Positions 1 to 49,232 of a stretch of DNA of 49,232 bases are shown here, piece by piece. How positions within the stretch are numbered: the first letter of the stretch is position 1; each line of letters starts with the position of its first letter. Position numbers and translations under genes: made by a program. Source of the stretch: a virus; the IMG/VR virus record IMGVR_UViG_3300028549_000279; one strand, given 5' to 3'. The notes below the pieces were generated by a model. It did no database searches. It worked only from the letters and a program-made list of their open reading frames with translations, and was not told the DNA's origin.

Positions 1-255
1 CAATCATTAGATATTGTACACTTAACAATTGCCTACCACAAGGAGCACCGACCTCTCCTTTCTTAGCAAACCTGGCTATGCAAGGTTGTGATACAGAGAT
101 TACAGCGTACTGCAAAAGACTAGGACTTACCTACACACGCTACGCTGATGATATTTTAATCAGTAGCCCTGTTAAATTTAAAGCAAATGAAGTAGCAGAA
201 GCTATATCTACTATCCTACTACGGAAAAACTTATCTGTTAATCGTGATAAAACAC
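1..255. repeat. Terminal direct repeat; nt 1-255 are identical to nt 48978-49232 (circular closure or terminal redundancy; unique length about 48977 bp)
   Basis: Base-by-base comparison of the first lines (caatcattagatattgtacactt...cgtgataaaacac) with the last lines of the window shows an exact match at offset 48977. Confidence 0.95.
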
Positions 256-515
256 GCTTCGGCTCATGTAACGGACGTAATTGGAATCTTGGGTTAATGT
301 ATAACAAAGATGAAGACATAACCGTAGGTTATAGAGCTAAAAAGTTAATGAAAAATAAGTTGCATAATATAGAATCCAGAGGGTATACTAATAAGGAACT
401 TCATCAATTCAGAGGATTACTTAGCTACTACAATGGTATTGAGCCTGCTTATTTTGCACCTTATTTAGAACGTGCTAAAGCATTACCATTACATCCAGAA
501 CCAGAAACAGAATAA
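1..515 (+). CDS. Retron-type reverse transcriptase, C-terminal part (continues 48413..49232 across the junction; codon phase starts at nt 3)
   Basis: The frame is open from nt 3. It contains LPQGAPTSPFLANL (RT motif 4), YTRYADDILIS (YxDD motif 5) and LSVNRDKT (motif 6). It is in phase with the ORF that starts at 48413. Confidence 0.9.
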   Translation, partial: IIRYCTLNNCLPQGAPTSPFLANLAMQGCDTEITAYCKRLGLTYTRYADDILISSPVKFKANEVAEAISTILLRKNLSVNRDKTRFGSCNGRNWNLGLMYNKDEDITVGYRAKKLMKNKLHNIESRGYTNKELHQFRGLLSYYNGIEPAYFAPYLERAKALPLHPEPETE

Positions 516-668
516 TGATACAGTCGCAGATTTATCCAAAACCGCAGCAACATGCTGTCATATAGGATGGCATCTAATTAGGTTAGATGTATTACGTTGT
601 TCAAAAGTTACTATGTACCTCCTCCACATGGAGGCGTACATGATACATGGACTGTATAGGAGAAACAA

Positions 669-824
669 ATGAACCAATCAGAACGAAATCTTTTAGCAAC
701 ACTCAGCTTAACCTTTAGTAAATCTTGGATACAAAGAGCATCTAAACACACTCTAAAACAAGTAAAGGCTCAGTTGGTAGAAATTATTAATCTAATCAAC
801 CAAATATTGGAGGAAACCAAATGA
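669..824 (+). CDS. Hypothetical small protein (51 aa; MNQSERNLLATLSL...)
   Basis: ATG at 669 is preceded by AGGAG. The stop TGA overlaps the ATG of the next gene (ATGA at 821-824). It is below the ORF-track length cutoff. Confidence 0.5.
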   Translation: MNQSERNLLATLSLTFSKSWIQRASKHTLKQVKAQLVEIINLINQILEETK

Positions 825-1246
825 AGAAACAAGACCTAAGAGAACTGTTGGTTAATGGAAGTACTGTAGTTACTGCAGACCATGACATCTATATGGTAGT
901 GTACAGCGACCTTTTTGAAACTAATCTATTAATTTCCACAGAATCTGGAAACTACCTTGAAGTAGGTGTTGTAACAGAAGATATGTACGTACATGAAAGT
1001 AAAGTTCCAGATTCTAAGATAGTATTAGTCTTCCCTAAAGAAGCAGCAATAATCGAAAAAGATATAGTACGCATCAAAAAAGATGCAGTACCAACCTACG
1101 ATATACGCAATGAAATATCTGAAATAAGTGCGTGTACAGTGTGTGCTAAACAAAACTGTGATAGACGTAAAGAGCTAGAAACAACTGATAAAGATAGAAA
1201 TGCTGAGATGCTTTTAAAATTACTCAGCGCATTAGTAAGAGAATAA
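821..1246 (+). CDS. Hypothetical protein (141 aa) between the RT and the structured element
   Basis: GGAGGA lies 7 nt upstream of the ATG, which is translationally coupled to the 669 ORF. No motif recognised apart from a CxxCxxxxC cluster near the C-terminus. Confidence 0.6.
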   Translation: MKKQDLRELLVNGSTVVTADHDIYMVVYSDLFETNLLISTESGNYLEVGVVTEDMYVHESKVPDSKIVLVFPKEAAIIEKDIVRIKKDAVPTYDIRNEISEISACTVCAKQNCDRRKELETTDKDRNAEMLLKLLSALVRE

Positions 1247-1260
1247 GTTTCGCCATATGT

Positions 1261-1495
1261 TACGCAATAGCATATCGTCATTCAGTTTAGATTTATCTAA
1301 GCCATGACCAAGCTAACTAAGTTAGCTTGTACAACAACGTGAGTACAGATGTTTATTGCCTCCTGCAGTTAACAGGTAACCTGGAGCTGCTGGAGATGAT
1401 ATTCATACTGGAAAACCGTCCTCTATCATCTCCAGCAGCTCCAGGTTACCTGTTAACTGCAGGAGGCAAACACACACGGATAATTGTATTGCGTA
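1261..1495 (+). ncRNA. Candidate retron-like msr/msd noncoding RNA (hypothesis)
   Basis: TACGCAATA (1261-1269) and TATTGCGTA (1487-1495) form a 9-nt inverted repeat, and G1270 sits in an A-G-C context right after the 5' repeat. Two short hairpins (1285-1302, 1309-1329) are followed by a perfect 45-bp stem (1356-1469). It lies on the same strand as the RT and about 750 nt downstream of it. Confidence 0.35.
1356..1469. repeat. Perfect 45-bp inverted repeat with a 24-nt spacer (long hairpin/cruciform)
   Basis: Arm 1356-1400 (ttgcctcctgcagttaacaggtaacctggagctgctggagatgat) is the exact reverse complement of 1425-1469. The loop is 1401-1424. No T-run follows on either strand. Confidence 0.97.
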
Positions 1496-12571: not shown

Positions 12572-12600
12572 AGAAGCAGCTAAAAGCTGCTTCTTCTTGT
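12572..12600. terminator. Bidirectional rho-independent terminator at the convergence of the two arms
   Basis: agaagcagct/agctgcttct forms a 10-bp stem (12572-12581 / 12585-12594). T-rich runs follow on both strands. It overlaps the stop codon of the giant ORF. Confidence 0.6.
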
Positions 12601-21600: not shown

Positions 21601-22992
21601 ATTAGAAGCAAGTTTAGTAATATCTCCAGCTTCTTCCCAGTGGTCTGTTAAATAATTATATGGCTTTACTACAGACTGTGCAAACACAGAAAGTATATCT
21701 GTGATAACATTAGTGCCATTATCAACATCAAAAGCAGACCGAGATATTTGACGCACTAAAGCATCTTTAAAAGAATTGACTTGTTCAGCACTGTACATAT
21801 CGGACATGTAAATATCATTCTCTTTAGATTTCTTTTTAGCATTCTCAAATGTAATTGCTGCATCATTAATCTGTTTAAGATACGCTTCGTTAGGTAGTAT
21901 ATTGATGTTACCATCTTGTACGCGCCCCTCATACTGATTTAGGAGCGTGCGCTCGATTTTAGAAAGTCTATCGACATTTGTTCCAGGAATATTTCCAGCC
22001 TGTGCACGAGCCTTTAGAGTCTCGTAGAAAGCATATTCATCTGCACGCATTCCTTTAGCGTTTAATCTTTTGTTAGCTTCATCATATTTGCCTAACCATT
22101 TAGAGTATGCTTCTTTGTATGTGTTTGCACTATCATCATACATACCAGACACTACCTGTCTACGAGCAACTAAGGTCTGGTATTTATCATAGTCTTCTTG
22201 CTGTAATGTAAGTCCGTCCTCAGTTTGAATAGCAGTCTTTTGAATATTATCAAGTTCTTTATCCAGAGCTTCTATCTCTGTGATATAGTTCTTTGCTTTA
22301 TCTTCAAAATAACTACTACATGTATCCATGAGAATACCATATCTGGAAGTATCATCTTTTGCATCAGCATATTCATCATCTGGTTTAGCGTATTTATACA
22401 ACGAGAAAGAGCCATCCTTATTAGGGATAGCTATAACAACCTTATCTATATTAGAAATTCCACTGAGTCTTTCCTTTCCTATCGTTGGAAATTCTGAATC
22501 AGCATACCGTGTATTCTCTGTGAGTGCATCCCCATCATCTAAAAACCAAGTCTGGAGTGTGTTGTTATTTGCTGCATCCTGTATTCGTTTCTGTGCATCT
22601 GCAGTCACAGTGTTCACTTTAAACTTTGTGTTGTTGGACATGTTTGTTGGTGGTGTGTACACAGGTGCGATGTCTGGTTTAGTTACAGGAGTGTGTGCAG
22701 GCACACCTTGTACAGTTGTTTCTTTCTTAACTTTATTAATACCATCTTCAATATCAAGACGGTCTGTAAATACTCTGTGTTCAGCTGTTTCTAAGAAAGG
22801 ATTAGACTGTACTACTTGTTTCTTGCGCAATACTTTCTGCTCAATAGGGTCTGCTTGTTTGAACTGCTTAACCTTTTTTGCTGCTTGCTCTGCTTTGTAT
22901 TTATTAGAATAAGGTAAAACAGAGATAGCGTCCTTTTTAGGGACGCTACTTTTTGTTGCAAAAAGATTTGGCGTAGTCTTTTTACCACTCAT
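12580..22992 (-). CDS. Giant virion-associated protein (3470 aa); putative internal/ejection protein, function unknown
   Basis: A single uninterrupted ORF with an AGGAGA RBS, and the last gene of the late operon. It has C-terminal tandem repeats and a basic tail. I recognised no enzymatic motif. Confidence 0.9.
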   Translation of the reverse strand: MSGKKTTPNLFATKSSVPKKDAISVLPYSNKYKAEQAAKKVKQFKQADPIEQKVLRKKQVVQSNPFLETAEHRVFTDRLDIEDGINKVKKETTVQGVPAHTPVTKPDIAPVYTPPTNMSNNTKFKVNTVTADAQKRIQDAANNNTLQTWFLDDGDALTENTRYADSEFPTIGKERLSGISNIDKVVIAIPNKDGSFSLYKYAKPDDEYADAKDDTSRYGILMDTCSSYFEDKAKNYITEIEALDKELDNIQKTAIQTEDGLTLQQEDYDKYQTLVARRQVVSGMYDDSANTYKEAYSKWLGKYDEANKRLNAKGMRADEYAFYETLKARAQAGNIPGTNVDRLSKIERTLLNQYEGRVQDGNINILPNEAYLKQINDAAITFENAKKKSKENDIYMSDMYSAEQVNSFKDALVRQISRSAFDVDNGTNVITDILSVFAQSVVKPYNYLTDHWEEAGDITKLASNEIIEKYKDPKYDNLSDTQKQVAISTESFIAARVPAFTNLLGTAAGIMLNNVFVNLAETFDISNYLVKPFAVGINMANDEVVLKENLKNNINLKKLYEDAKTNHGELTVADRMGVNAWMDAWGANGTTPSYEYDMLWRSDETMGASGFVTQLALEIMFDPATWVNAGIKVAASGQTTAVNKLEDVLRATWTDAGIDASELAVSKYAKQIISAAIVQGEQLQDVFLKKAMQGIKSSVSRNPLTYAKHLESVPKNSALKFMDAHKSQKLALTTAAAKAADNLPTSLGTSYKVIASLSTVPKVLNKIDSMLFAVSVPPILARDTLRGIRNLVTTVAAVNPANAKIIGSVTERISNKLSNELAIGGSKSVLTIQLGAAAELVSKEVNSVAHLLDNKILDEYTSSVVAGIAKRQSNIELTAFQSIMSSGKSADNTIAALDKYCADLTKGTSFAHVQSFPEYLKLMTQNIELYKTTFDNAAIARLRQLQKKYVILRADGRISKMKELKDVTDKAHTVIQSSLTDVPYRMLTFTYEGNGAGLKASYNRMVGEYKTLYNSIIDDFNTMSKQQTAAIFKEAHANLTTLFDTFTSAMYMSVSTERRKLVEDAFRKLSESNIKIHALTNSYLDKIETQRINTALANYHNPIKDEVNTFEDMPDFTQNNLRDLCTTIATNLTQQTNVPITPDKVLETLKHGVEDCLTADGSLDTERLSRLYRIDLDKLSKSAAYINNPDLQKYTTELLDYKGVSYDTLWEAGYVLAGKEEHKEYVHALNTVYVKLCEYANHTELFKSVLALDSKGVDKVFITGFLDAIAGNAKYINRAFNELNYNSPGAISRVADKITDTVVDNAVDFIMGTHHMQTPNGDGVKLWRKGCNTVDTTQNVAKIEELLADVNQKGIIEVLEDADDKYIDVVYSASMTNKHTIPFMLSFKVDGELSTFRNSDIPFAVKGSTESVYGVSFEDALAQYNQVVNTHAGVDEDEYLRMVDDYMYTLKTKAGKEGKQLRFIGFNNSTMGNNQDRYLELLVRRHVMDVHETMMIDIANVIRHENHIPVVPKETVAALRDTMEHAIEHGVGQNTLHDIAVAGLVSSPEDGIDGAIGILIREMDSARPILQQGMVLPTGLLDTAQEQLKNLRMAYRNSIHANTEAMDGLNGVFIDEYALRKLVEAESGNKIKPVRLNCMNLIRENIGHDFNYNLITDINMVHMKAWFDLAKVAPDYAPNHSAVQRLLVNLERTYNEVAYPELAEVIPEQDYHDYANIFLELFEKFAQKTPGNDDKLFALKALNITGMDKVQLYAVCADLRRSIPSKLVASLDADIQSKIYSVDSLVQEATDLLSAKGRTVVYDGARAKIVASRYASPVAQANEFSADMELLDTLAEQMHSFDGYLATLDSLYEDNRMLSPKERIKGTLFATVNTPFKDFVDSITSYAPRAEHYSIHDDNPVFNAIQNNTYSKQFSEYKRMVGSFSKNHKQTVAMNVLSLNNADFTAHVIRNCKNALIINPRAEIFNDSRMTNLLYKKLDELKEQTELIVRYEDNVLKIYKDMSGLRGSELNTFLRTYDKAVVPSGYLNHQHGIQKMLEDGISEYKAAIVRANANPNIPFDKLSAIKAIYKRSATASLYMSDAEFYQHVVEEARTHKAYTKLTDELSKYMPADYYFSTGDVITQDAVNAIYEMFPQEAHLDLGLINSGSGFRWFDDSFMCSIIGDSTDFKKVNPYYTDNVLSNIGAGIHHVRNNLEATTDYFALYDNPTQSLRHMIEASNIAPDFRSVNRSLINNGYVLHKGEIATNKHGEQIWEIKQIKLDSHGDFINAMNDPRVICTPNEVLMQMKAFAKGETLNWRAENATDTRVHMMEMYNLWSQRVRSTRSLGWLFGVPFGAALRNRAGSGMNAYAAAGDVALFKYMGNATEMNNRYGEIYADMLEEYGNVTGDIVHEYFYKYRDNPAKLKELDFDTFAQLFAHKESSAAGFSGAIDYMKENQSRKLVGLIPEHERALFTPRPVLDDAGEISHVLYEEVESAQKIYQKVFNKHAHEVKKEAAIIKEEVRKALELSKLYTTEQVEILSKLYIYYIPSNDMAMEMIQRIPLAGKALSGYLNFNKAQFSAAEDVTRTGMAMYYADKFGMSMNRANQEVIASQFDYSNRSLGMDIIETLFPFSTFKIYNTAFWMFDAPNRFNAIRTMTKYGRAAQLEYDSEELMLMNRNIALREKIASGELNYQDNKEDTEDPGFLSSVINAYTGVPSLYSENGGNIALGKNHVLKAGNTFVDALSMVQSVFMAIPELLSGQVPSIFADNIYAPISTLLQKVIPYMLMGEGADWDEVLRENYYDLFDLVPLLGGLVNLAMTHLKTGNLSVADLQAINTNPQLQNEYGYRLSESLFDVLGMVMPSVVGTVSDKQSYMDRPVGTNWYEQTDEYKKTHRYVFGISAVPSFFTKNPETYVDYYGLYTKMGYEEEEVGHILSWMFGTPRPQEYQYKDDEINAALESLVDKGYTADEAIRLIQRVWLGATNIEEVDDRIRNLAFLKKYDMLPDYIKYEDGQYAQLKAWYKAQGYTVEQMWNLMSTQNPYIDEQGDVRYLTQTQADELTSSLNTEYIEYMNGLPDWMQYEPGASTRTIAYLIGNGIVADIDQARDYITANHFYVDPKGKAVTYTDAENAAKEATSSTEFKTYYNNLPEYIKYEKGAFSRTISWLTKNGASSEEAKAMIKDGAYLTVDGRLIDCRGLKSKGVQKWGALTPEEIAEFQAYFAKLPDYIKYEKGAYKRILRHLMDKEGMSYEDAKSYMLKNYVDVDANGKLVLYSQKDIDKMKTDKDAAFKAFYDSLPDYIKFEKGAYSRTYAYLKAQGYDKATIMNMIKEGAYLSLATPSGGAKIINVKGLKKPRRVRRPNRRFVNNYKARFKKQRKPFKNKRSFGRTYSATNSRRGHKFGAQTTQKITLGYNRTRTVLGMASGLPASYRNVAHSNRKNMYREMYAKYGLSRMTIRSNAWNSYSNASITRLRRNEIKNKMKYQTRRSSF
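12997..14040 (-). repeat. Five tandem in-frame repeats of about 56-76 aa (216-228 nt) within the giant ORF
   Basis: Each unit starts LPDYIKYE(D/K)G, LPDWMQYEPG, LPEYIKYEKG or LPDYIKFEKG. This is followed by an A(Y/F)SRT..(Y/W)L...G....A..(M/Y)I segment and a D..G(K/R/D)(L/A/V) segment. It corresponds to aa 2985-3332. Confidence 0.9.
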
Positions 22993-43479: not shown

Positions 43480-43490
43480 TGGAGGTGCCT

Positions 43491-43991
43491 ATGAGAAATT
43501 ATAAAGATTGTAATTGTGTTCCAATTAAAGGATATGAATCAGACTATGACATCTATGATAATGGTCAGATACTTTCAAAATTAACAGATATGTGGTTAAA
43601 ACCATCTATAGATACAAAAGGATATTTGAAAGTTGTGCTACATTGTGACGGAGCATACAAAACATTTAGAGTACACGTACTTGTTGCACAACACTTTATC
43701 CCTAACCCAGATATGTTACCAGTTGTAAATCATATTGATGGTGTTAAAACTAATCCAGATGTAAGTAATCTGGAATGGGTAACTTACTCAGAAAATACTC
43801 AACACGCTCACGACACTAACTTAATTACTAAAACAAGTAATAAGGTTGTTGTGAGAGGTGATGGTAAAGAATACAAATCACTTACAGAAGCAGCAGCTGA
43901 TAACGGAGTTACAAAATCAGCAATAAGTAAAGTGTTGCATGGTGTAAGGAAGTCAGCAGGTGGTCAAACCTGGACAGAGAAATCGGTGTAA
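43491..43991 (+). CDS. HNH_3-family homing endonuclease with a NUMOD-like HTH tail
   Basis: NHIDGVKTNPDVSNLEWVTYSENTQHA is the HNH motif. YKSLTEAAADNGVTKSAISKVL is NUMOD1-like. The gene is free-standing with its own promoter. Confidence 0.85.
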   Translation: MRNYKDCNCVPIKGYESDYDIYDNGQILSKLTDMWLKPSIDTKGYLKVVLHCDGAYKTFRVHVLVAQHFIPNPDMLPVVNHIDGVKTNPDVSNLEWVTYSENTQHAHDTNLITKTSNKVVVRGDGKEYKSLTEAAADNGVTKSAISKVLHGVRKSAGGQTWTEKSV

Positions 43992-44045
43992 ACGCATGAG
44001 CGTTAACATAAAAACTATTAATCAGATTCCATAGGAGGAACAACA

Positions 44046-44417
44046 ATGAGAGTAAAATTCGAAAACAACAGTTTAGTAATCGTAACAGGCATCGCAAAAG
44101 AAGTAATCGAGGGTGGCATCGCAGCTCTTGAAATCAAAGCTACAAAAGACAGACCAGGTTTCAGACTTGCAGTTAGCAAAGATGGTAAAGGTTCAATCGA
44201 CCAGTACGGTATCGTAGCAAATGCTTACATTGGTGGGCAGGCTGCACTTGTTATCCAGACTCCAATCGAAGCAGACCTAGATGCTGTAAAGAAACAGTAT
44301 GGTAAAGTGATTGTTAACGCTGCTCCTTACTTAGCAGAACTTGCTGCACAGGCATCAGCAGAAGTTGCTACAATCGACGCTGTATTTGAAGATGTTGCAC
44401 CAATTACAGCTCAGTAA
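44046..44417 (+). CDS. Hypothetical protein (123 aa)
   Basis: An AGGAGG RBS is present. No motif recognised. Confidence 0.6.
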   Translation: MRVKFENNSLVIVTGIAKEVIEGGIAALEIKATKDRPGFRLAVSKDGKGSIDQYGIVANAYIGGQAALVIQTPIEADLDAVKKQYGKVIVNAAPYLAELAAQASAEVATIDAVFEDVAPITAQ

Positions 44418-44504
44418 CACACCAACCAATGCATCAGAAGTAATGTGGGTAGTCATTTAGGCTGCCCTCAATCTTCAAACACCTAATACACGGAGGAATG
44501 TACA

Positions 44505-44741
44505 ATGATTAATTTAACAATCGGAACAAACACAGAAAGAAAAACAGCAATAGTGGAGCCAGACAGACCACTTAAAGACATCCTTAGAGAGAATGAAATC
44601 AATACCGCAGGTAGTGCACTTCATCTTAATGGAAGTTTGATTGCAGGAGTAGACGCAGACAGTTCATTAGCAGAACTGGGCATTGCAGATGGTTCCTCGG
44701 CAATGTTAATTGCAGTCGTTAAGGCTGACTCAGCAGCTTAA
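44505..44741 (+). CDS. Ubiquitin-like beta-grasp (ThiS/MoaD-like) protein, 78 aa, C-terminus ...KADSAA
   Basis: The pattern MINLTIG....V....PLKDIL......LHLNGSLI......LAELGIADGS.MLIAVVK matches the ThiS/MoaD-type Ubl layout. It is followed by JAB and E1-like genes. Confidence 0.5.
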   Translation: MINLTIGTNTERKTAIVEPDRPLKDILRENEINTAGSALHLNGSLIAGVDADSSLAELGIADGSSAMLIAVVKADSAA

Positions 44742-44758
44742 AGCATGTCCCACTTACG

Positions 44759-44790
44759 AAACGCAGGGGTCACAGCCTGCGTTTTATTTT
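44759..44790 (+). terminator. Rho-independent terminator/attenuator between the Ubl gene and the downstream operon
   Basis: aaacgcagg-ggtcacag-cctgcgttt (9-bp stem) is followed by TTTTATTTT. Confidence 0.7.
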
Positions 44791-44828
44791 GCTCTAAAAT
44801 AACCAATGATTCATAAGGAGGTAATACA

Positions 44829-46715
44829 ATGCCACTATTAGCAAGCAGTAAAGAAGATTTATTAAATCGTATTATAGGATTAACCAGTTTGAATATTCGT
44901 ACAGATTTGTACAGAGCACGTTCTCCTGTAGATTTTGGAGACTTAAATACTATACTACACCTATTAAACGCACCTACCATTAATGAACTTGAAAACTACA
45001 GTGATGATAGACGAAACAACAGCATACCACAGAGAATCCGCAGCATAAGACTTGTATCAAGAACCTTACCACGTGGTACTGATGTACAAGAACTCAATAA
45101 ATTTTTTAGAAACTTCCTACTAGAAAACCTTTTCATGTATGGACTGCCATGCTCATGGATACATAGAAGTACACGCAACAATATGAACTTTGCACAGTAT
45201 AAAGATGATGAATCTTTTGAACTCAACAGTATTGTGCCAGGAATGAGCAGAGAAGCTATGTTAGAAGAAAAAGCACGCCCTAATAGCAGACTGGCTTCTA
45301 TAACAGTACTTAATGATTACAATTGTGGAGCTGCATCTAACACATACTTTAGCACATTAGTAGAGAATGGAATGTTAGAGGCTATGCCAGAGTACATATT
45401 ACCTATGACACAGCATCCTAACCATCGCGTAAAACTCTACAAAGTAATAGCTATCCCAGAAATTCTAGGGATACATGATATGTTCGTATGCACAACAAAC
45501 ACATATAACTCACAGGTTTTATTACAGACATTAGCTGCTGCATTACCTACTATATGTGAAGCTGTACAAGAAGAAATAAAACCTCTTATAGAGGTAGCAA
45601 AAGACAATATGTTACGACAAGTCCCTAACACATCCAATAACATGAGAGACTGGTGCTATGAACACTATGGCGATTACCTTGAAACCATTGAAGAAACAAG
45701 ACGTACAGCTGCTATTAACACATTAATAACACAAATGTCTTCTGGAGCTCTTGCAAATATAGAACAAAAAATCGCAAATGTAAACGATATAATCAATGAT
45801 TATTATTCAGCATTACGAGATAGTTATAAACTGTTAGAAGTGGCACAAATAGAGCACCTCAAACTAATTACAGGCAGTGGCACAGAAAAAATAGAAGAAT
45901 TCAAAAACTTCTTAATTGCATCTTCAAACACCTACACAAATTATGAGGTGCGCAATGACGGAGACGGCAACATTAGATTCTCCTTGCTAGTCAACACACC
46001 TTTATTATATTGGGATGAAGCACAATACAAAATGCTACGTGAATCTACACGTGATAACAGAGTAACCTTATTAGGTAGTGCGCACAAACAATACTTCGAT
46101 GATATTCTTTTAAATAAAGCTATAATCTTAAATATGGAATCTGGGGTATCATTCAATTTAAGTGTAACAAACCCAGGTGTTTCATACGCAGATATAGCTG
46201 ATAGACAAATAAGTACAAATGATAGAAAAGGAATGTCTAATCCACATCACAGATACCATCAATGTTTTGGTAATAACAAAATGCCGATACACAATGCTAT
46301 AAGAGAGCAAGACTATGTAACATTAATCTGTCAAGCAGCTGCAGCAGTAGCAGGTATTAATATATCGGATGGAACTGTAATGGGTAAATTCTTTGATACA
46401 GGCAGAGACTTATCTGAATTGAAATATGCAAAGATACTTACAGTAGTAGCTACAAAAGAACGTATCTCTCCTAATGAGTACTTCCAACGCATCAAAACAG
46501 TAGGTAATAAAAGTATTACAGAATGGTTAGCAGTACAAAGTGCAACTCTGACTACACCTGTTGGAACAATACCAACAGAACTTCCTATTGAAGACCAAGG
46601 TGAGTTCACAATGCCAACAGCAGTTCCACATCAAGACATAGCAGATGCAGTTACACAAGCAATGGAATTTATAGATGAATTTGAAGACACTGAAAATAAT
46701 GGTGACCCATTCTAA
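44829..46715 (+). CDS. Large protein of unknown function (628 aa) in the Ubl/JAB/E1 cluster
   Basis: AAGGAGG RBS. The next gene starts 12 nt after its stop. No canonical motif; NPHHRYHQCFG is a possible Cys active-site context. Confidence 0.8.
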   Translation: MPLLASSKEDLLNRIIGLTSLNIRTDLYRARSPVDFGDLNTILHLLNAPTINELENYSDDRRNNSIPQRIRSIRLVSRTLPRGTDVQELNKFFRNFLLENLFMYGLPCSWIHRSTRNNMNFAQYKDDESFELNSIVPGMSREAMLEEKARPNSRLASITVLNDYNCGAASNTYFSTLVENGMLEAMPEYILPMTQHPNHRVKLYKVIAIPEILGIHDMFVCTTNTYNSQVLLQTLAAALPTICEAVQEEIKPLIEVAKDNMLRQVPNTSNNMRDWCYEHYGDYLETIEETRRTAAINTLITQMSSGALANIEQKIANVNDIINDYYSALRDSYKLLEVAQIEHLKLITGSGTEKIEEFKNFLIASSNTYTNYEVRNDGDGNIRFSLLVNTPLLYWDEAQYKMLRESTRDNRVTLLGSAHKQYFDDILLNKAIILNMESGVSFNLSVTNPGVSYADIADRQISTNDRKGMSNPHHRYHQCFGNNKMPIHNAIREQDYVTLICQAAAAVAGINISDGTVMGKFFDTGRDLSELKYAKILTVVATKERISPNEYFQRIKTVGNKSITEWLAVQSATLTTPVGTIPTELPIEDQGEFTMPTAVPHQDIADAVTQAMEFIDEFEDTENNGDPF

Positions 46716-46727
46716 GGAGGATAACAA

Positions 46728-47597
46728 ATGCGACCAATCAAACTAACAACCACTAAGGTAGAAGAAATTGTCCAAGCAATACGCCAAGACTTATTAAACA
46801 ATAAGTTTAGTAAAGAACAGATTACTGTTAATTTCAGCTTAAAGAAAACAAATGAAGAAACACCTAATGCTACTGTAATCTTTACAGAATTAGCTGCTAA
46901 GAAAATGGATGCACTTGTACAGAAATGTACAGAAGAAGTAGGCTGGCATGGAACTGTAACAAAGGTAGGTTCACAGTACACCATAGAAGATATCTTAGTA
47001 TTTCCTCAGTATGTCACTGGTGCTACAGTAACTCCAGATGAAACAGAATACGCGCTCTGGATGGGCAGCCTGGATAATGAAACATTCAACAAGGTACGTT
47101 TCCATGGACATAGCCATGTTAACATGGGAGTAACACCCTCTGGTGTAGATACAACATTCCAGGCAAACATATTAAACAATCTTAATTCATTCTATATCTT
47201 TGGTATCTTCAATAAAAAAGATGCCAACTGGATGACAATCTTCGATGTAGAAGATAATATTATCTACGATGATAATGATATTAACCTGGTATACATGGGA
47301 CAAGAAGTTCAAGACTGGGCTACAGAAGTTATCAAAGAAAACGTTAAGAAAAAAGTATATGCAGCAGCTGTAACAACAGGAGCTTCTCAATTTGGCGCAA
47401 ACGCATATAACGGACAATATGGTGGGTACTATGATAGAGCAGGAGCAGCAGCTACACAACGTGTTGGAGGTGGCACTGACAAGGAAAAAAAGTCAGTAAC
47501 AGAAAGCATAATGGAAGACACGGAAACAGCAAGCATAGGCGTTGAGGCGCAAATGATTATGGAAGATTATTTTAATCAGATGTATGGAGGTAATTAA
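46728..47597 (+). CDS. JAB/MPN (JAMM) metalloprotease-domain protein
   Basis: CTEEVGWHG provides the upstream Glu, and FHGHSHVNMGVTPSGVD is the HxHx7Sx2D JAMM motif. The C-terminal tail is low-complexity G/A/Y-rich. Confidence 0.75.
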   Translation: MRPIKLTTTKVEEIVQAIRQDLLNNKFSKEQITVNFSLKKTNEETPNATVIFTELAAKKMDALVQKCTEEVGWHGTVTKVGSQYTIEDILVFPQYVTGATVTPDETEYALWMGSLDNETFNKVRFHGHSHVNMGVTPSGVDTTFQANILNNLNSFYIFGIFNKKDANWMTIFDVEDNIIYDDNDINLVYMGQEVQDWATEVIKENVKKKVYAAAVTTGASQFGANAYNGQYGGYYDRAGAAATQRVGGGTDKEKKSVTESIMEDTETASIGVEAQMIMEDYFNQMYGGN

Positions 47598-47599
47598 AT

Positions 47600-48292
47600 A
47601 TGGACAGGTCTAAAGTAATGGACTTCTTTGATGCAGCTGAGGTTCAAATGAAAATAAATGTTATAGGCTGTGGAGCAATAGGCTCTCATGTATGTGAGGA
47701 ATTAGCACGGTTAGGATTCCAGGAAGTACACATCTACGACTTTGATACAGTTTCACCACACAACATTACCAATCAAATGTTCACACATTTTGATATAGGA
47801 GCATCTAAAGTATCTGCCTGCGCAGATGCAATGCACGCCATAAACCCCGATATGGCAGTGTTTCAACATAATGAGGGATTACAACACCCTTATGTCTGCA
47901 ATGGTATTATCATCCTATGTGTTGATAATATCGGACTCCGTAAAGAAATCGTGAAAGCTAACCAGTACAACCCCCACTGCAAAGCAATCGCTGATTTCCG
48001 AATGAGAATGACAGATGCCCAGCACTACTTCGCTAACAAAGAGGTAGCATTTGAGATGGAACAACTGCTCAACAGCATGGACTTCACGCATGAAGAAGCC
48101 AAGGCGTCCACACCAGTTAGTGCATGTGGAGTAGAACTAAGTGTAGTGTACACTGTAAAAGCAATAACAGCTTTCGGTTGCGCTAACATAGTTAAATTCC
48201 TTATGGAAACTAACGACTACAAAACAATGGTTCTAGTTAATATGGAATCATTCATTGTAGATGCTTTCCGAGCAGTGCCTAGACCTAAGTAG
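47600..48292 (+). CDS. ThiF/MoeB/E1-like adenylyltransferase (230 aa)
   Basis: INVIGCGAIGSHVCEELARLG is the GxGxxG Rossmann motif. YDFDTVSPHNITNQMF is the D.D.V...N..(R/N)Q motif. LCVDN is present, and SACG supplies a candidate Cys. Confidence 0.8.
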   Translation: MDRSKVMDFFDAAEVQMKINVIGCGAIGSHVCEELARLGFQEVHIYDFDTVSPHNITNQMFTHFDIGASKVSACADAMHAINPDMAVFQHNEGLQHPYVCNGIIILCVDNIGLRKEIVKANQYNPHCKAIADFRMRMTDAQHYFANKEVAFEMEQLLNSMDFTHEEAKASTPVSACGVELSVVYTVKAITAFGCANIVKFLMETNDYKTMVLVNMESFIVDAFRAVPRPK

Positions 48293-48307
48293 GCAACATT
48301 GAAGCCG

Positions 48308-48344
48308 TAAGGCTACTAATTAGTATTTACTAAAGGTAGCCTTA
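48308..48344 (+). other. Hairpin between the E1-like gene and the RT (possible terminator or processing site)
   Basis: taaggctac/gtagcctta forms a 9-bp stem with an inner 5-bp ttagt/actaa stem. The downstream sequence is tagcatctttt. Confidence 0.4.
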
Positions 48345-48378
48345 TAGCATCTTTTAAGTACCATATGGTTATTTCATT

Positions 48379-48396
48379 TTTAACCCACCCCCACCC
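48379..48396 (+). promoter_or_regulatory. C-rich box copy a (TTTAACCCACCCCCACCC) in the RT leader
   Basis: It lies immediately 5' of the AAGGAGG of the RT gene. Confidence 0.4.
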
Positions 48397-48412
48397 TAAG
48401 GAGGAATACAAT

Positions 48413-49232
48413 ATGTTTTTGAATTACTATTCTAAACCTCGTATTCGTACCACTGGTACGATGGAACAATTACAAAAGGAACTCCAATACAACCAGGGTA
48501 GGATTATTACTAAAACTGTGACCACACCAGGAGTAAACCAAACTACAAGAAATAAAGTAAGAAACACACTTTATAAATTACAAAATAAATTAAGAGAAAC
48601 TAATATTCAATTAGTAAACACTAATATTAGTGCGATGCCATCTATGTACCACCTTGTTAAGATACCAAAGAAAACAGGTGGGTACAGAGAGTTAATGGTA
48701 CCAGATGAAGAACTCAAAGAGTTTCAACGGATTATTTTAGATACTCTGCAGAATAAATTAAAAGTACTACCTCATAATGCGGCTCATGGGTTCACTAAGC
48801 ACAGAAGCTGCTATACAGCAATACAAGTACACCAACAAGCACACGCACGTTGGTTTCTAAAAATGGATATTAAAAACTTCTTTACAAGTGTACATACTGA
48901 ATGGTTATTATCAACACTACAAGAAAATGCTGCAATATGCATAATGAATGCAAGTACAGCACGCAATTTTGAAGACTCAATCATTAGATATTGTACACTT
49001 AACAATTGCCTACCACAAGGAGCACCGACCTCTCCTTTCTTAGCAAACCTGGCTATGCAAGGTTGTGATACAGAGATTACAGCGTACTGCAAAAGACTAG
49101 GACTTACCTACACACGCTACGCTGATGATATTTTAATCAGTAGCCCTGTTAAATTTAAAGCAAATGAAGTAGCAGAAGCTATATCTACTATCCTACTACG
49201 GAAAAACTTATCTGTTAATCGTGATAAAACAC
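48413..49232 (+). CDS. Retron-type reverse transcriptase, N-terminal part (open at the window end; continues at nt 3..515; 359 aa when joined)
   Basis: ATG 48413 has AAGGAGG 8 nt upstream. Motifs seen: KIPKKTGGYRELMVP (RT1), LKEFQRIILDTL (2), HNAAHGFTKHRS (NAxxH, 3), FLKMDIKNFF, LPQGAPTSPFLANL and YTRYADDILIS. It is absent from the ORF track because no stop falls within the window. Confidence 0.9.
   Translation, partial: MFLNYYSKPRIRTTGTMEQLQKELQYNQGRIITKTVTTPGVNQTTRNKVRNTLYKLQNKLRETNIQLVNTNISAMPSMYHLVKIPKKTGGYRELMVPDEELKEFQRIILDTLQNKLKVLPHNAAHGFTKHRSCYTAIQVHQQAHARWFLKMDIKNFFTSVHTEWLLSTLQENAAICIMNASTARNFEDSIIRYCTLNNCLPQGAPTSPFLANLAMQGCDTEITAYCKRLGLTYTRYADDILISSPVKFKANEVAEAISTILLRKNLSVNRDKT

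What the first reader, a model, noticed from the sequence alone, without database searches (positions are those of the whole stretch)
44505..48292. Phage-encoded ubiquitin-like / JAB / E1-like gene cluster
**Gene content.** Four consecutive plus-strand genes encode:
- A 78-aa protein with a ThiS/MoaD-like beta-grasp pattern.
- A 628-aa protein of unknown function.
- A JAMM/JAB metalloprotease, with an HGHSHx7Sx2D motif and an upstream EVGWHG.
- A compact ThiF/E1-like adenylating enzyme, with GCGAIGS, YDFDTVSPHNITNQ, CVDN and a candidate Cys in SACG.

The last three are separated by only 12 and 2 nt.

**Comparison with known systems.** Ubl + E1 + JAB (with or without E2) sets are established in bacteria as Bil and as CBASS Cap2/Cap3-type conjugation systems that act against phage. 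Here the set is carried by the phage itself.

**Unusual details.** No recognisable E2 is present. The Ubl ends in ...KADSAA rather than GG, so JAB processing or C-terminal Ala activation would be needed.

**Possible roles.** These include modification of virion or host proteins, counter-defence against host Ubl systems, or exclusion of competing phages.
Basis: partly seen in the sequence, partly recalled or inferred. Interest (0 to 1): 0.8.

Follow-up and report, generated by a model that had tools for sequence, protein, structure and literature searches.

The report
Phage retron coupled to ubiquitin-like machinery
The phage's ubiquitin-like protein, JAB protease and E1 enzyme are real, but they are only part of a larger conserved cassette that also carries a retron reverse transcriptase and its non-coding RNA, a pairing I found in no classification or paper I searched.

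Summary
The four ORFs and every quoted motif are present as described. Profile evidence supports a ThiF/E1 adenylating enzyme (strong) and a JAMM/JAB metalloprotease (catalytic residues invariant in 16 orthologues; the only PDB hits are Rpn11). It also supports a beta-grasp Ubl (best PDB profile hits SAMP2, PF1061, ThiS). Ubl orthologues end in a conserved K-x-D-x-Ala followed by 0-4 variable residues, which indicates precursor trimming.

The 628-aa protein has a confidently folded C-terminal domain with invariant His473 and Cys479. It shows no significant similarity to E2 enzymes or to any solved structure.

The cluster also includes:
- An upstream 123-aa gene (X), fused to the Ubl C-terminus in some relatives.
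- A downstream retron-clade reverse transcriptase that spans the circular junction of the contig.
- Retron-type msr-msd ncRNA units with a1/a2 repeats and a branching G.

All six genes occur in the same order in 67 of 97 loci from gut phage contigs and MAGs. Flanking genes are mostly unrelated, and RT and E1 have co-diverged.

My best reading is a phage-carried retron whose accessory module is a minimal Ubl-conjugation system. This is a new variant of known kinds. Its target and biological role are unknown.

The parts
43485..43991 (+). HNH/NUMOD homing endonuclease immediately upstream of the cassette. It is a neighbour and possible mobility driver, not a core part.
   Evidence: Pfam matches to HNH_3, I-HmuI_NUMOD-like and NUMOD4. 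The same kind of gene sits upstream of the cassette in L002 and L098.
44046..44417 (+). Protein X (123 aa), a divergent member of a ~125-145 aa family. The gene lies just upstream of the Ubl, or is fused to the Ubl C-terminus directly after the conserved Ala in other loci. It is a candidate substrate or partner of the Ubl.
   Evidence: All-vs-all BLASTP, alignment A5 and an HMM hit in the window and in most loci. No match in Pfam, PHROGs, PADLOC, NCBIfam or PDB.
44505..44741 (+). Ubiquitin-like (beta-grasp) protein precursor, 78 aa. K73, D75 and A77 are invariant. A77 is the inferred mature C-terminus and A78 a removable tail.
   Evidence: The family profile against PDB gives SAMP2 E = 0.003, PF1061 0.004 and ThiS 0.036, plus ubiquilin UBLs and TtuB. 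Orthologues hit Pfam ThiS and SAMP2.
44758..44785 (+). Terminator-like G+C-rich hairpin with a T run, directly after the Ubl gene. It may attenuate transcription, so that X and Ubl are made in excess over the enzymes (inferred).
   Evidence: Consensus scan. This is a pattern match only.
44829..46715 (+). 628-aa protein of an orphan family. It has an N-terminal alpha/beta region, an ~80-residue helix and a conserved C-terminal alpha/beta domain (residues ~345-565, nt 45861-46523). H473, C479, G481 and D514 are invariant. It is a candidate thioester-forming transferase or adaptor and is not demonstrably an E2.
   Evidence: 346 family representatives in the 1.84-billion-protein library. Invariant residues. 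AF2 models have pLDDT 80.6 (full length) and 92.7 (domain). Foldseek, hhalign and Pfam are negative or insignificant.
46728..47597 (+). JAMM/MPN+ (JAB) zinc metalloprotease, 289 aa, with a low-complexity C-terminal tail. It is inferred to trim the Ubl precursor and to reverse conjugation.
   Evidence: E70, W73, H128, S129, H130, S138 and D141 are invariant in 16 orthologues. The profile hits only Rpn11 in PDB, in register. Prok-JAB is hit by 4 of 16 orthologues.
47600..48292 (+). Minimal ThiF/MoeB-type E1-like adenylating enzyme, 230 aa, with invariant Cys176 in an invariant MDFTHEEA...SAC segment.
   Evidence: Pfam ThiF 1.6e-21. Best PDB hit MoeB at 2.6e-9, followed by UBA5, NAE1 and Cap2. 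NCBIfam ThiF, MoeB and SAMP E1 all score below their cut-offs. Conservation.
48413..49232 (+). Retron-clade reverse transcriptase, N-terminal 273 codons. The gene runs off the window end and continues at window position 256.
   Evidence: The window ends overlap by 255 nt. Pfam RVT_1 3.2e-32, PADLOC RT_II-A 1.7e-58, and NCBIfam retron_St85_RT 209.5 bits against a cut-off of 235. Called as a 359-aa gene in an independent assembly.
1..515 (+). The rest of the same reverse transcriptase gene. Positions 1-255 duplicate 48978-49232, and the stop codon ends at 515. This part contains LPQGAPTSP and the YTRYADD active site.
   Evidence: The YTRYADD, LPQG and D152 motifs are at least 95% conserved in 70 distinct RT orthologues.
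518..657 (+). Retron-type ncRNA unit A. It has a1 at 518-525, G526, an msr hairpin with a conserved loop, the GTTGTTCAAAA motif, a short msd hairpin and a2 at 650-657.
   Evidence: Inverted-repeat search. A covariance model built only from L002 and L098 units gives its top window hit at 538-622 (21.4 bits, rough E 0.084, next hit 14 bits), with all 8 hairpin pairs formed.
669..1246 (+). Two small ORFs (51 aa and 141 aa) between the two ncRNA units. Their function, and whether they belong to the system, are unknown.
   Evidence: ORF list. The 141-aa gene is also called in the independent assembly.
1261..1495 (+). Retron-type ncRNA unit B. It has a1 at 1261-1269, G1270, two small hairpins, a perfect 46-bp msd-like stem (1356-1401 / 1424-1469) and a2 at 1487-1495.
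   Evidence: The RNA fold of 1247-1522 gives -132 kcal/mol, z = -15.1, with 0 of 200 shuffles as stable. Neither covariance model detects it, so it is assigned by architecture only.

Best explanation
The finding is part of a self-contained cassette of about 6.7 kb carried by a circular ~49-kb tailed-phage genome. The gene order is X, Ubl, a Cys/His protein (p628), a JAMM protease, an E1 and a retron reverse transcriptase, plus retron msr-msd ncRNA.

**Anatomy (shown)**
- A ThiF-type E1 with an intact adenylation site.
- A JAMM protease with a complete catalytic motif.
- A beta-grasp Ubl.
- An RT with an intact YADD site.
- ncRNA units with the a1/a2-plus-G retron architecture.
- All six genes collinear in about 70 loci.

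**Proposed mechanism (inferred)**
1. The JAMM protease trims the Ubl precursor just after the invariant Ala77. This removes a 0-4 residue tail or, in fused variants, releases protein X.
2. The E1 adenylates the exposed Ala carboxylate and may take it onto invariant Cys176.
3. The Ubl is passed to a target, either directly as in E2-less archaeal SAMPylation, or through the invariant Cys479/His473 site of p628 acting as an unconventional E2/E3.
4. The JAMM protease can reverse the modification.
5. X, which is genetically fused to the Ubl in some phages, is the leading candidate for a substrate or adaptor.
6. The retron RT copies the msd into msDNA. As in other retrons, the RT-msDNA complex acts as the sensor or regulator that controls the accessory module, which here is the Ubl conjugation machinery.

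**Likely role (inferred).** The most likely role is conflict between mobile elements: excluding competing phages or manipulating the infected cell. Every characterised retron, and the characterised bacterial Ubl/E1/JAB conjugation systems (Bil, type II CBASS), act in phage-host conflict.
For: **Component identities**
- E1.
- JAB.
- Ubl.
- RT.

**Precursor processing**
- Among 59 distinct Ubls with K-x-D-x-A, the tail after the Ala is 0 residues in 19, 1 in 17, 2 in 10, 3 in 5 and 4 in 2. Six are fused to X directly after the Ala, and one variant ends in YGG.
- Bil Ubls have a conserved Gly followed by up to 9 variable residues, which the JAB DUB removes (PMC10557695).
- E. cloacae CdnD ends in ...GRFA and was captured as the AMP adduct in the Cap2 E1 site (10.1101/2022.03.31.486616).

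**X belongs to the module.** It lies upstream of the Ubl or is fused to it.

**Retron ncRNA**
- In relatives, the spacer between E1 and RT is typically 280-360 nt.
- The a1 arms differ in sequence between loci, are followed by G, and pair with a2 arms ending 7-28 nt before the RT start codon.
- Cognate spacer ends share at least 8 nt of complementarity in 27 of 44 loci, against 14% for non-cognate pairs (p = 4e-11). In 24 of those 27 the arm is followed by G.
- An msr hairpin covaries at 7 of 7 pairs.
- Window units are supported.

**Linkage**
- 67 of 97 loci have all six genes in the same order, and most of the rest are truncated contigs.
- All 1275 pairs of complete loci share the cassette, but only 12% share any flanking homologue.
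- E1 and RT distances correlate at Spearman 0.78 (Mantel 0/999). That is at least as strong as E1 with JAB (0.53) or with p628 (0.70).
Against: - Nothing shown here demonstrates conjugation, msDNA synthesis or any phenotype.
- No E2 could be recognised. The p628 domain gives only insignificant E2/UEV matches (TM <= 0.35, E >= 0.3; hhalign probability 0.14).
- The E1 is a minimal 230-aa enzyme with no CYS domain, no CxxC zinc motifs, and Asn58 in place of the canonical Arg of the N-x-x-R-Q motif.
- The Ubl fold rests on marginal profile E-values (0.003-0.04) and not on a structure.
- The window's own ncRNA lies downstream of the RT, not upstream. Unit A scores only 21 bits (rough E 0.08) and no model detects unit B.
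- Three loci with enough sequence (L022, L062, L065) lack an RT within 7 kb, so the Ubl module can exist without it.
- The cassette sits in the early/replication arm of a phage with no recognisable integrase. That is not the usual setting for a defence cargo gene.
- Co-divergence alone would also arise from plain vertical co-inheritance.
Confidence: 0.55

Rival explanations
1. There are two independent accessory systems that merely travel together. One is an E2-less Ubl conjugation or processing system (X, Ubl, p628, JAB, E1), working alone like archaeal SAMPylation or Bil. The other is a separate stand-alone retron next door, with no functional coupling.
For: Three loci with enough sequence lack an RT near the Ubl module (L022, L062, L065). 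Accessory genes often cluster in phage genomes. The position of the ncRNA relative to the RT differs between clades. Stand-alone msr-msd-RT cassettes exist in some retron clades (PMC7736814).
Against: The RT follows E1 on the same strand in about 95% of complete loci. In most loci the ncRNA fills the E1-RT spacer exactly, with a1 starting just after the E1 stop codon. Flanking genes are unrelated in 88% of locus pairs, yet the six genes stay together. The RT co-diverges with E1 more tightly than JAB does.
Confidence: 0.17
2. It is a sulfur-carrier pathway, not protein conjugation. The Ubl would be a ThiS/MoaD/QbsE/CysO-like carrier. The JAB would expose or recycle its C-terminus as QbsD or Mec+ do. 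The E1 would adenylate it for thiocarboxylate formation. The sulfur would then feed a phage-specific modification, for example of a nucleotide, tRNA or the msDNA.
For: The closest full-length solved relative of the E1 is MoeB, and its top NCBIfam hits are ThiF and MoeB. ThiS is among the Ubl profile hits. The E1 is single-domain like ThiF and MoeB, and no E2 is detectable. From established knowledge, JAMM plus Ubl plus E1 sulfur pathways with C-terminal trimming do exist: QbsCDE in thioquinolobactin synthesis and CysO/Mec+ in mycobacterial cysteine synthesis.
Against: All NCBIfam ThiF and MoeB scores are far below the family cut-offs (for example 73.9 against 159). The mature terminus is Ala rather than the Gly-Gly found in known sulfur carriers. 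No protein in the cassette matches any family other than ThiF and RVT_1, so no rhodanese, cysteine desulfurase or sulfur-acceptor enzyme was detected. The E1 lacks the CxxC zinc motifs of MoeB and ThiF (read directly from the sequence). Natural Ubl-X fusions cleavable at the Ala resemble ubiquitin-fusion precursors and point to a protein partner.
Confidence: 0.1
3. The mechanism is the same, but the purpose is offensive or housekeeping rather than exclusion of rival elements. The phage would use Ubl conjugation early in infection to inactivate or redirect host proteins, including host defence proteins. The abundant msDNA would serve as a decoy or cofactor for this, or for the phage's own replication.
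For: The cassette lies in the plus-strand early/replication arm, directly upstream of the helicase, primase and DNA polymerase genes. The same position is seen in L002 and L098. No integrase-like ORF is evident among the large ORFs of the window. The cassette is retained in about 90 distinct phage-like contigs.
Against: All characterised retrons, and the Bil and type II CBASS Ubl systems, are defensive (PMC7736814, PMC10557695). The cassette behaves as a movable accessory unit with unrelated flanks, not as a core replication gene set. It sits next to a homing endonuclease. At least one locus is in a 428-kb contig of a cultured isolate, which suggests a prophage or other resident element.
Confidence: 0.18

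Closest known systems
Retrons (RT + msr-msd ncRNA + accessory effector; 13 types in Mestre et al. 2020, PMC7736814)
   Same: The RT falls in the retron clade (PADLOC RT_II-A 1.7e-58; retron_St85_RT 209.5 bits) and has YADD and NAAH motifs. The ncRNA has a1/a2 inverted repeats, a G directly after a1, msr hairpins and a long msd stem. The RT is tightly linked to accessory genes on the same strand.
   Different: The accessory module is a five-gene Ubl/E1/JAMM set, which is absent from the 13-type classification: that paper has no mention of ThiF, JAB or ubiquitin. The RT scores below the curated St85 cut-off. The cassette is carried in phage genomes. In the window's clade the ncRNA is downstream of the RT and can occur as tandem arrays of three units. 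msDNA production is untested.
Bil (BilABCD) bacterial ubiquitination-like antiphage systems
   Same: Both have a Ubl, an E1 and a JAB protease. In both, the Ubl carries a conserved small C-terminal residue followed by a short variable tail, which in Bil the JAB DUB removes before adenylation (PMC10557695).
   Different: The Bil E1 is multidomain (IAD, AAD and CYS domain), whereas here it is a single 230-aa domain. Bil has a recognisable E2 (BilB/CEHH), and none is found here. The terminus is Gly in Bil and Ala here. Bil is a host defence operon, not a phage gene set, and has no RT or ncRNA.
Type II CBASS Cap2/Cap3
   Same: PADLOC Cap2 (E1-E2) models hit the Rossmann part of the E1. Cap3 is a JAB protease that reverses conjugation. 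Cap2 activates a C-terminal Ala in E. cloacae CdnD.
   Different: There is no CD-NTase, no E1-E2 fusion and no CBASS effector here. The activated protein is a beta-grasp Ubl, not a cyclase. The matches cover only residues ~16-95 of the E1.
Archaeal SAMPylation (UbaA E1, SAMP1-3, HvJAMM1/PfJAMM1) and Thermus TtuB/TtuC
   Same: Both have a minimal single-domain E1, a small beta-grasp modifier and a JAMM protease, with no E2 or E3. SAMP2 is the best PDB hit of the Ubl profile, from the JAMM1-SAMP2 complex entry 5lda.
   Different: SAMPs end in Gly-Gly and also act as sulfur carriers. The NCBIfam SAMP-activating E1 model scores only 38.7 bits against a cut-off of 450. SAMPylation has no counterpart of p628, X, the RT or the ncRNA.
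QbsC/QbsD/QbsE and CysO/Mec+/MoeZ sulfur-carrier pathways
   Same: Both combine a ThiF/MoeB-like adenylating enzyme, a small beta-grasp carrier and a JAMM protease that trims or unloads the carrier's C-terminus (from established knowledge).
   Different: These carriers expose Gly-Gly and need sulfurtransferase and acceptor enzymes. None is detectable in this cassette, and the Ubl here is fused to a protein partner in some loci.

Membership tests
ThiF/MoeB/E1 adenylating enzyme superfamily (230-aa protein) | Match to the ThiF family profile above the curated threshold | tested here: met
   PF00899 scores 77 bits against a cut-off of 28.1, E = 1.6e-21, covering residues 16-212. Top PDB hits are MoeB, UBA5, NAE1 and Cap2.
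ThiF/MoeB/E1 adenylating enzyme superfamily (230-aa protein) | Nucleotide-binding GxGxxG loop, ribose-binding acidic residue, phosphate-binding Lys and Mg-binding Asp | tested here: met
   G23, G25, G28, D47/D49, K70 and D109 are invariant in 16 orthologues and align with MoeB.
ThiF/MoeB/E1 adenylating enzyme superfamily (230-aa protein) | Conserved Arg of the N-x-x-R-Q motif, and the CxxC zinc motifs of MoeB/ThiF | tested here: not met
   The position aligned to the MoeB Arg is an invariant Asn58. The sequence contains no CxxC pairs (read directly). It is therefore a divergent subfamily. All equivalog models (ThiF, MoeB, SAMP E1, PRTRC ThiF) score below their cut-offs.
ThiF/MoeB/E1 adenylating enzyme superfamily (230-aa protein) | Catalytic Cys that forms an acyl-thioester (E1 proper) | tested here: inconclusive
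   Cys176 is invariant within an invariant MDFTHEEA...SAC segment downstream of the Mg-binding Asp. Its equivalence to the crossover-loop Cys is inferred, and the chemistry cannot be tested here.
JAMM/MPN+ (JAB) metalloprotease (289-aa protein) | Catalytic signature E...HxHx7Sx2D | tested here: met
   E70, H128, H130, S138 and D141 are invariant in 16 orthologues with 24-40% identity to the window protein. They align in register with the Rpn11 catalytic residues.
JAMM/MPN+ (JAB) metalloprotease (289-aa protein) | Significant profile match to a JAB/MPN family | tested here: inconclusive
   The window protein has no Pfam, NCBIfam or PADLOC hit. The family profile hits only Rpn11 chains in PDB at E = 0.01-0.06. 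Prok-JAB PF14464 is hit by 4 of 16 orthologues, best E = 0.028, below the gathering threshold.
Beta-grasp ubiquitin-like modifier (ThiS/MoaD/SAMP/ubiquitin) (78-aa protein) | Beta-grasp fold | tested here: inconclusive
By sequence profile, the best PDB hits are SAMP2 0.003, PF1061 0.004 and ThiS 0.036, with ubiquilin UBLs and TtuB further down. Orthologues hit Pfam ThiS at 0.0027 and SAMP2 at 0.0072. The hits are consistent but marginal.
Beta-grasp ubiquitin-like modifier (ThiS/MoaD/SAMP/ubiquitin) (78-aa protein) | C-terminal Gly-Gly (or Gly) exposed for adenylation | tested here: not met
   The conserved terminus is [N/G/S]-Ala, and only L037 ends in YGG. A small C-terminal Ala is a known E1 substrate in CBASS, so the function may be kept.
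Beta-grasp ubiquitin-like modifier (ThiS/MoaD/SAMP/ubiquitin) (78-aa protein) | Encoded next to a cognate E1 and a processing peptidase, with a variable precursor tail | tested here: met
   Synteny across about 80 loci. Tail-length distribution of 0-4 residues, plus fusions.
E2 / UBC-fold conjugating enzyme (C-terminal domain of the 628-aa protein) | UBC fold | tested here: not met
   The domain model has pLDDT 92.7. The best E2 hits are UbcH7 at E = 0.3, TM 0.26/0.34 and rmsd ~11 A, and nothing reaches E <= 0.001. The order of secondary-structure elements resembles UBC, but that is my reading and not a test.
E2 / UBC-fold conjugating enzyme (C-terminal domain of the 628-aa protein) | Sequence-profile similarity to E2 families, including the HPN...Cys motif | tested here: not met
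   No Pfam hit in 46 family members. The motif is NPHH-x4-C, not HPN-x~9-C. It is not filed as an E2.
Retron | Reverse transcriptase of the retron clade with an intact active site | tested here: met
   PADLOC retron RT models score up to 1.7e-58. NCBIfam retron_St85_RT scores 6.3e-62 but 209.5 bits, under the cut-off of 235, while group II intron RT scores only 126.7 bits. YTRYADD, LPQG and D152 are at least 95% conserved in 70 orthologues, and NAAH is present.
Retron | Adjacent ncRNA with a1/a2 inverted repeats and a branching G right after a1 | tested here: met
   Relatives: (27/44 cognate against 14% non-cognate; 24/27 followed by G). Window: unit A at 518-657 is supported by an independent covariance model. 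Unit B at 1261-1495 has z = -15.1 and is assigned by architecture only.
Retron | ncRNA located immediately upstream of the RT gene | tested here: not met
   This holds in most relatives. In the window, L002, L031 and L098 the E1-RT spacer is only 18-120 nt and the units lie downstream of the RT.
Retron | Production of msDNA branched from the msr G | not testable with these tools
   This needs RT-DNA extraction or sequencing from cells expressing RT plus ncRNA.
Retron | Membership of one of the 13 described retron types, defined by accessory gene | tested here: not met
   The classification paper does not mention ThiF, JAB or ubiquitin at all. PADLOC accessory-protein models do not hit X, Ubl, p628 or JAB.
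Bil (BilABCD) / type II CBASS Cap2-Cap3 | Multidomain E1 with a CYS domain plus E2 (Bil), or an E1-E2 fusion with a CD-NTase substrate (CBASS) | tested here: not met
   The E1 is 230 aa with a single domain. The Cap2 models align only to residues ~16-95. No E2 and no CD-NTase are in the cassette.

The most novel reading that the evidence does not exclude
The Ubl machinery may act directly on the retron's own product. The E1-activated C-terminal Ala of the Ubl, or of Ubl-X, would be joined to the msDNA/msr nucleic acid or to the RT itself, giving a covalent Ubl-nucleoprotein. The tandem arrays of distinct msr-msd units would then specify different nucleic-acid partners. That would be a direct biochemical link between reverse transcription and ubiquitin-like conjugation. 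My evidence neither supports nor excludes it beyond the tight genetic linkage.
Probability: 0.06. Interest if true: 0.95.

Novelty: new variant of a known kind. Interest (0 to 1): 0.82.

Why it matters
Retrons and bacterial ubiquitin-like conjugation systems are two actively studied kinds of phage-bacterium conflict machinery. So far they have been treated as unrelated.

- **A new accessory module.** A cassette in which a retron RT and ncRNA are inherited as one unit with a Ubl, E1, JAMM protease and two orphan proteins would add an accessory module unlike any in the 13-type retron classification.
- **A built-in sensor.** It would give a Ubl system a nucleic-acid sensor of its own.
- **Carried by phages.** About 90 gut phage or prophage contigs carry this machinery themselves.
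- **Testable questions.** The system makes several questions open to experiment:
  - Can Ubl conjugation proceed from a C-terminal Ala without a canonical E2?
  - What does the orphan Cys/His domain do?
  - What is protein X?
  - How does msDNA control a multi-enzyme effector?
- **A possible tool.** The tandem arrays of distinct msr-msd units served by one RT may also interest people who use retrons for DNA production.

Tried and rejected
- **Nucleotide search.** A megablast search of the region against 50,697 phage records found nothing.
- **tblastn of p628.** No phage record matched.
- **Word-indexed homologue search for p628.** It found only 4 close relatives, so the exhaustive HMM search was needed.
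- **Single-sequence searches.** JAB, Ubl, p628 and X gave nothing against Pfam, PHROGs, PADLOC or NCBIfam. JAB alone against PDB gave only noise.
- **Structure prediction of the Ubl.** Both prediction jobs went to p628, so the Ubl fold rests on profiles only.
- **E2 hypothesis for p628.** I tested it three ways: Foldseek on the full-length model, Foldseek on the domain model, and hhalign against canonical E2s. None supported it. I do not call it an E2.
- **Rfam.** Nothing relevant in 43900-49232.
- **First covariance model.** It was built from the clade with the ncRNA upstream of the RT and found nothing significant in the window. The window's ncRNA belongs to a different sub-architecture, found downstream of the RT.
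- **Alignment error.** In a first a1/a2 alignment I mis-registered the window row by one base, then redid it. The 100% pairing is partly built in, because the arms were chosen by an inverted-repeat search. The cognate versus non-cognate test is the fair control.
- **DGR reading of the RT.** I rejected it. The best matches are retron RTs, and the ncRNA has a1/a2 plus G rather than template/variable repeats. The msd has no match of 14 nt or more elsewhere in the genome.
- **MccB-like chemistry.** Peptide-nucleotide synthesis that needs a C-terminal Asn is unlikely. The residue before the terminal Ala varies (N, G, S) and the terminal residue is Ala.
- **Promoter scan.** It was uninformative: 15 sites found against 17.6 expected.

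Full report
**1. The observation**

The gaps between the last three are 12 and 2 nt. All quoted motifs can be read in the translations. An independent assembly of the same phage has the same gene calls.

The window is a tailed-phage genome. It has a plus-strand arm with helicase, primase and DNA polymerase, and a minus-strand arm with large terminase, portal and major head protein. Its first and last 255 nt are identical, so the contig is a circular assembly.

**2. The four proteins**

*E1.* The 230-aa protein is a ThiF/MoeB-type adenylating enzyme.
- Pfam ThiF scores 77 bits against a cut-off of 28.1.
- The best solved relative is MoeB over residues 15-194, followed by UBA5, the NEDD8 E1 and Cap2.
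- In 16 orthologues the nucleotide loop, D47/D49, K70 and D109 are invariant. So is a segment MDFTHEEA...SAC containing Cys176.
- It belongs to none of the curated equivalog families.
- It has Asn where MoeB has the conserved Arg, and it has no CxxC zinc motifs.

*JAB.* The 289-aa protein has no hit as a single sequence.
- E70, H128, S129, H130, S138 and D141 are invariant in 16 orthologues that share only 24-40% identity with it.
- The family profile hits only Rpn11 chains in PDB (E = 0.01), with the catalytic residues in register.
- Prok-JAB is the only Pfam family that several orthologues touch: 4 of 16.

*Ubl.* The 78-aa protein also has no single-sequence hit.
- Its family profile finds SAMP2 (0.003), the SAMP2-like PF1061 (0.004) and ThiS (0.036) as its best PDB hits. 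Ubiquilin UBL domains and TtuB appear further down, and non-beta-grasp chains are interspersed.
- Individual orthologues hit Pfam ThiS and SAMP2.
- I could not obtain a structure model for it. The fold assignment is consistent but rests on marginal scores.

*p628.* The 628-aa protein belongs to a family with 346 representatives at 50% clustering, mostly about 490 aa. The family has no Pfam match.
- Its conserved C-terminal domain has invariant H473, C479, G481 and D514 within a G-x-PNPHH-x-Y-x-NCWGDN motif.
- The domain folds with very high confidence: pLDDT 92.7, pTM 0.88.
- E2 and UEV structures recur among its Foldseek hits, but only at E >= 0.3 and TM <= 0.35.
- Profile-profile comparison with canonical E2s gives nothing.
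- The viral structure library returns only one uncharacterised gut-phage relative.
- I therefore do not call it an E2. It is an orphan domain with a conserved Cys/His pair.

**3. Evidence for Ubl precursor processing**

Across the loci there are 59 distinct Ubls with the motif K-x-D-x-A.
- The Ala is followed by 0 residues in 19, 1 in 17, 2 in 10, 3 in 5 and 4 in 2.
- K73, D75 and A77 are invariant in the 16-sequence alignment.
- Variants without the exact motif still end in ...NA, and one ends in ...YGG.
- In six distinct proteins the Ala is followed directly by a ~125-150 aa domain.

This is the pattern of ubiquitin-type precursors. There is direct precedent. Bil Ubls have a conserved Gly and up to nine variable residues, which the JAB DUB removes before adenylation (PMC10557695). 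A C-terminal Ala is activated by the Cap2 E1 domain in E. cloacae CBASS.

**4. A fifth gene, X**

The domain fused to the Ubl in those loci is homologous to a ~125-145 aa protein encoded immediately upstream of the Ubl in most other loci. The window's 123-aa ORF at 44046-44417 is a divergent member. X has no detectable relatives in PDB, PHROGs, Pfam or NCBIfam. The fusion marks X as a functional partner of the Ubl, either as a substrate or as an adaptor. That reading is an inference.

**5. A sixth gene and an ncRNA: a retron**

*The reverse transcriptase.* The ORF at the very start of the window matches the C-terminal part of the gene that follows E1 in 17 viral loci. Joining the window ends gives a 359-aa protein that starts at 48413, behind an AAGGAGG ribosome-binding site, and ends at 515.
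- It is a reverse transcriptase of the retron clade: RVT_1 3.2e-32, PADLOC RT_II-A 1.7e-58, and retron_St85_RT 209.5 bits, just under the cut-off of 235.
- Its YTRYADD, LPQG and catalytic Asp motifs are conserved in 70 distinct orthologues.

*The ncRNA in relatives.* In most relatives a spacer of 280-360 nt separates E1 from the RT.
- The spacer starts with an arm whose sequence differs from locus to locus. This arm is followed by G and is complementary to an arm that ends 7-28 nt before the RT start codon.
- In a control that avoids picking the arms, cognate spacer ends share at least 8 nt of complementarity in 27 of 44 loci, against 14% of non-cognate pairs (p = 4e-11). In 24 of those 27 the arm is followed by G.
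- An internal msr hairpin covaries at all seven pairs.

*The ncRNA in the window's clade.* In the window, L002, L031 and L098 the E1-RT spacer is short and the ncRNA lies downstream of the RT. L098 and L002 each have three tandem units with their own a1/a2 pairs. The window has two units.
- Unit A (518-657) is the top hit in the whole window, on both strands, of a covariance model built only from the L002 and L098 units. It scores 21.4 bits against 14 or less for everything else.
- Unit B (1261-1495) has a1 at 1261-1269, G1270, a perfect 46-bp stem and a2 at 1487-1495. Its fold gives z = -15.1. I assigned it by architecture only.

**6. The cassette is one unit**

- HMMs for the six families find all six in the same order on one strand in 67 of 97 loci. 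Most of the others are truncated contigs, and only three loci with enough sequence lack the RT.
- Among 51 complete loci, all 1275 pairs share the cassette, but only 12% share any flanking homologue within 3.5 kb.
- Pairwise divergence of E1 and RT correlates at Spearman 0.78 (Mantel 0/999). That is at least as strong as E1 with JAB (0.53) or with p628 (0.70).
- Carriers are IMG/VR viral contigs and gut MAG contigs assigned to Clostridia and Bacteroidales, plus one cultured isolate.
- A homing endonuclease sits just upstream in the window, L002 and L098.

**7. Interpretation**

*What is shown.* The component identities, the precursor pattern, the retron ncRNA architecture and the linkage.

*What is inferred.*
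- The order of reactions: JAB trimming after A77, adenylation by E1, possible thioesters on C176 and C479, transfer to a target and reversal by JAB.
- X as a substrate or adaptor.
- RT-msDNA as the sensor or regulator of the Ubl module, by analogy with other retrons.
- A role in conflict between mobile elements.

*Rivals.*
- Simple co-location of two independent systems.
- A sulfur-carrier pathway of the QbsCDE or CysO/Mec+ type.
- An offensive or replication-linked role rather than exclusion.

A terminator-like hairpin right after the Ubl gene (44758-44785) would fit higher expression of X and Ubl than of the enzymes. It is only a pattern match.

**8. Novelty**

The retron classification paper does not mention ThiF, JAB or ubiquitin. 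An RT-survey paper does not either. Full-text searches for retron together with Ubl/E1/JAB terms, and for phage-borne retrons, found no description of such a system.

Both halves belong to known kinds. New here are the coupling of the two, the Ala terminus, the absence of a recognisable E2, the orphan proteins X and p628, and the tandem ncRNA arrays. I rate it a new variant of a known kind, of high interest.

Noticed in passing
window 12580-22992 (-): A single 3470-aa ORF in the structural arm. It may be a giant virion protein or a virion-packaged polymerase-like protein. I did not examine it.
   Followed up: no
window 43485-43991 (+); also L002 4144-4719 and L098 4228-4737: An HNH/NUMOD (I-HmuI-like) homing endonuclease gene lies just upstream of the cassette (one small ORF intervenes in L002 and L098) in three related phages. 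It may help the cassette spread between phage genomes.
   Followed up: partly
L098 10089-10790; L002 9792-10464: Tandem arrays of three msr-msd-like units downstream of one RT gene. Each unit has its own a1-G...a2 pair and a different long stem. I know of no retron described with such arrays.
   Followed up: partly
L035 11066-12334; L022 14551-15882: Proteins of ~420-440 aa beginning MVY(I/V)ISKD...PLMP lie near the cassette. They look like IscB/RRXRR-HNH-type proteins. One is in the contig of the cultured isolate Clostridiales Family XIII PM5-7.
   Followed up: no
L062 and L065 (E1 at 8001 and 5331): These loci carry a duplicated X-Ubl-X-Ubl arrangement and have no RT within 7 kb. They are the clearest exceptions to the six-gene rule.
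   Followed up: no
L037 (Ubl about 2.4 kb upstream of E1 at 8001): One Ubl orthologue ends in ...KAYGG, a canonical Gly-Gly terminus, instead of the family's ...D-N-A.
   Followed up: no
window 1-255 and 48978-49232: An identical 255-nt terminal overlap shows that the contig is a circular assembly. Because of it, ORF lists miss the RT gene that crosses the junction.
   Followed up: yes
window 669-824 and 821-1246 (+): Two small ORFs (51 and 141 aa) of unknown function sit between the two ncRNA units. The 141-aa gene is also called in an independent assembly.
   Followed up: no
GenBank PV764601-PV764603, OQ603353, OQ603359 (jumbo Xanthomonas/Erwinia phages): These ~228-kb phages encode a ThiF-like protein 26% identical to the window's E1. 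It is annotated as 'thiamine biosynthesis protein'. I did not check its gene context.
   Followed up: no
alignment A2 (JAB orthologues): One JAB orthologue gives a weak hit to Pfam Tad3 (Type I Thoeris inhibitor), E = 7e-4. It is probably in the variable C-terminal region.
   Followed up: no
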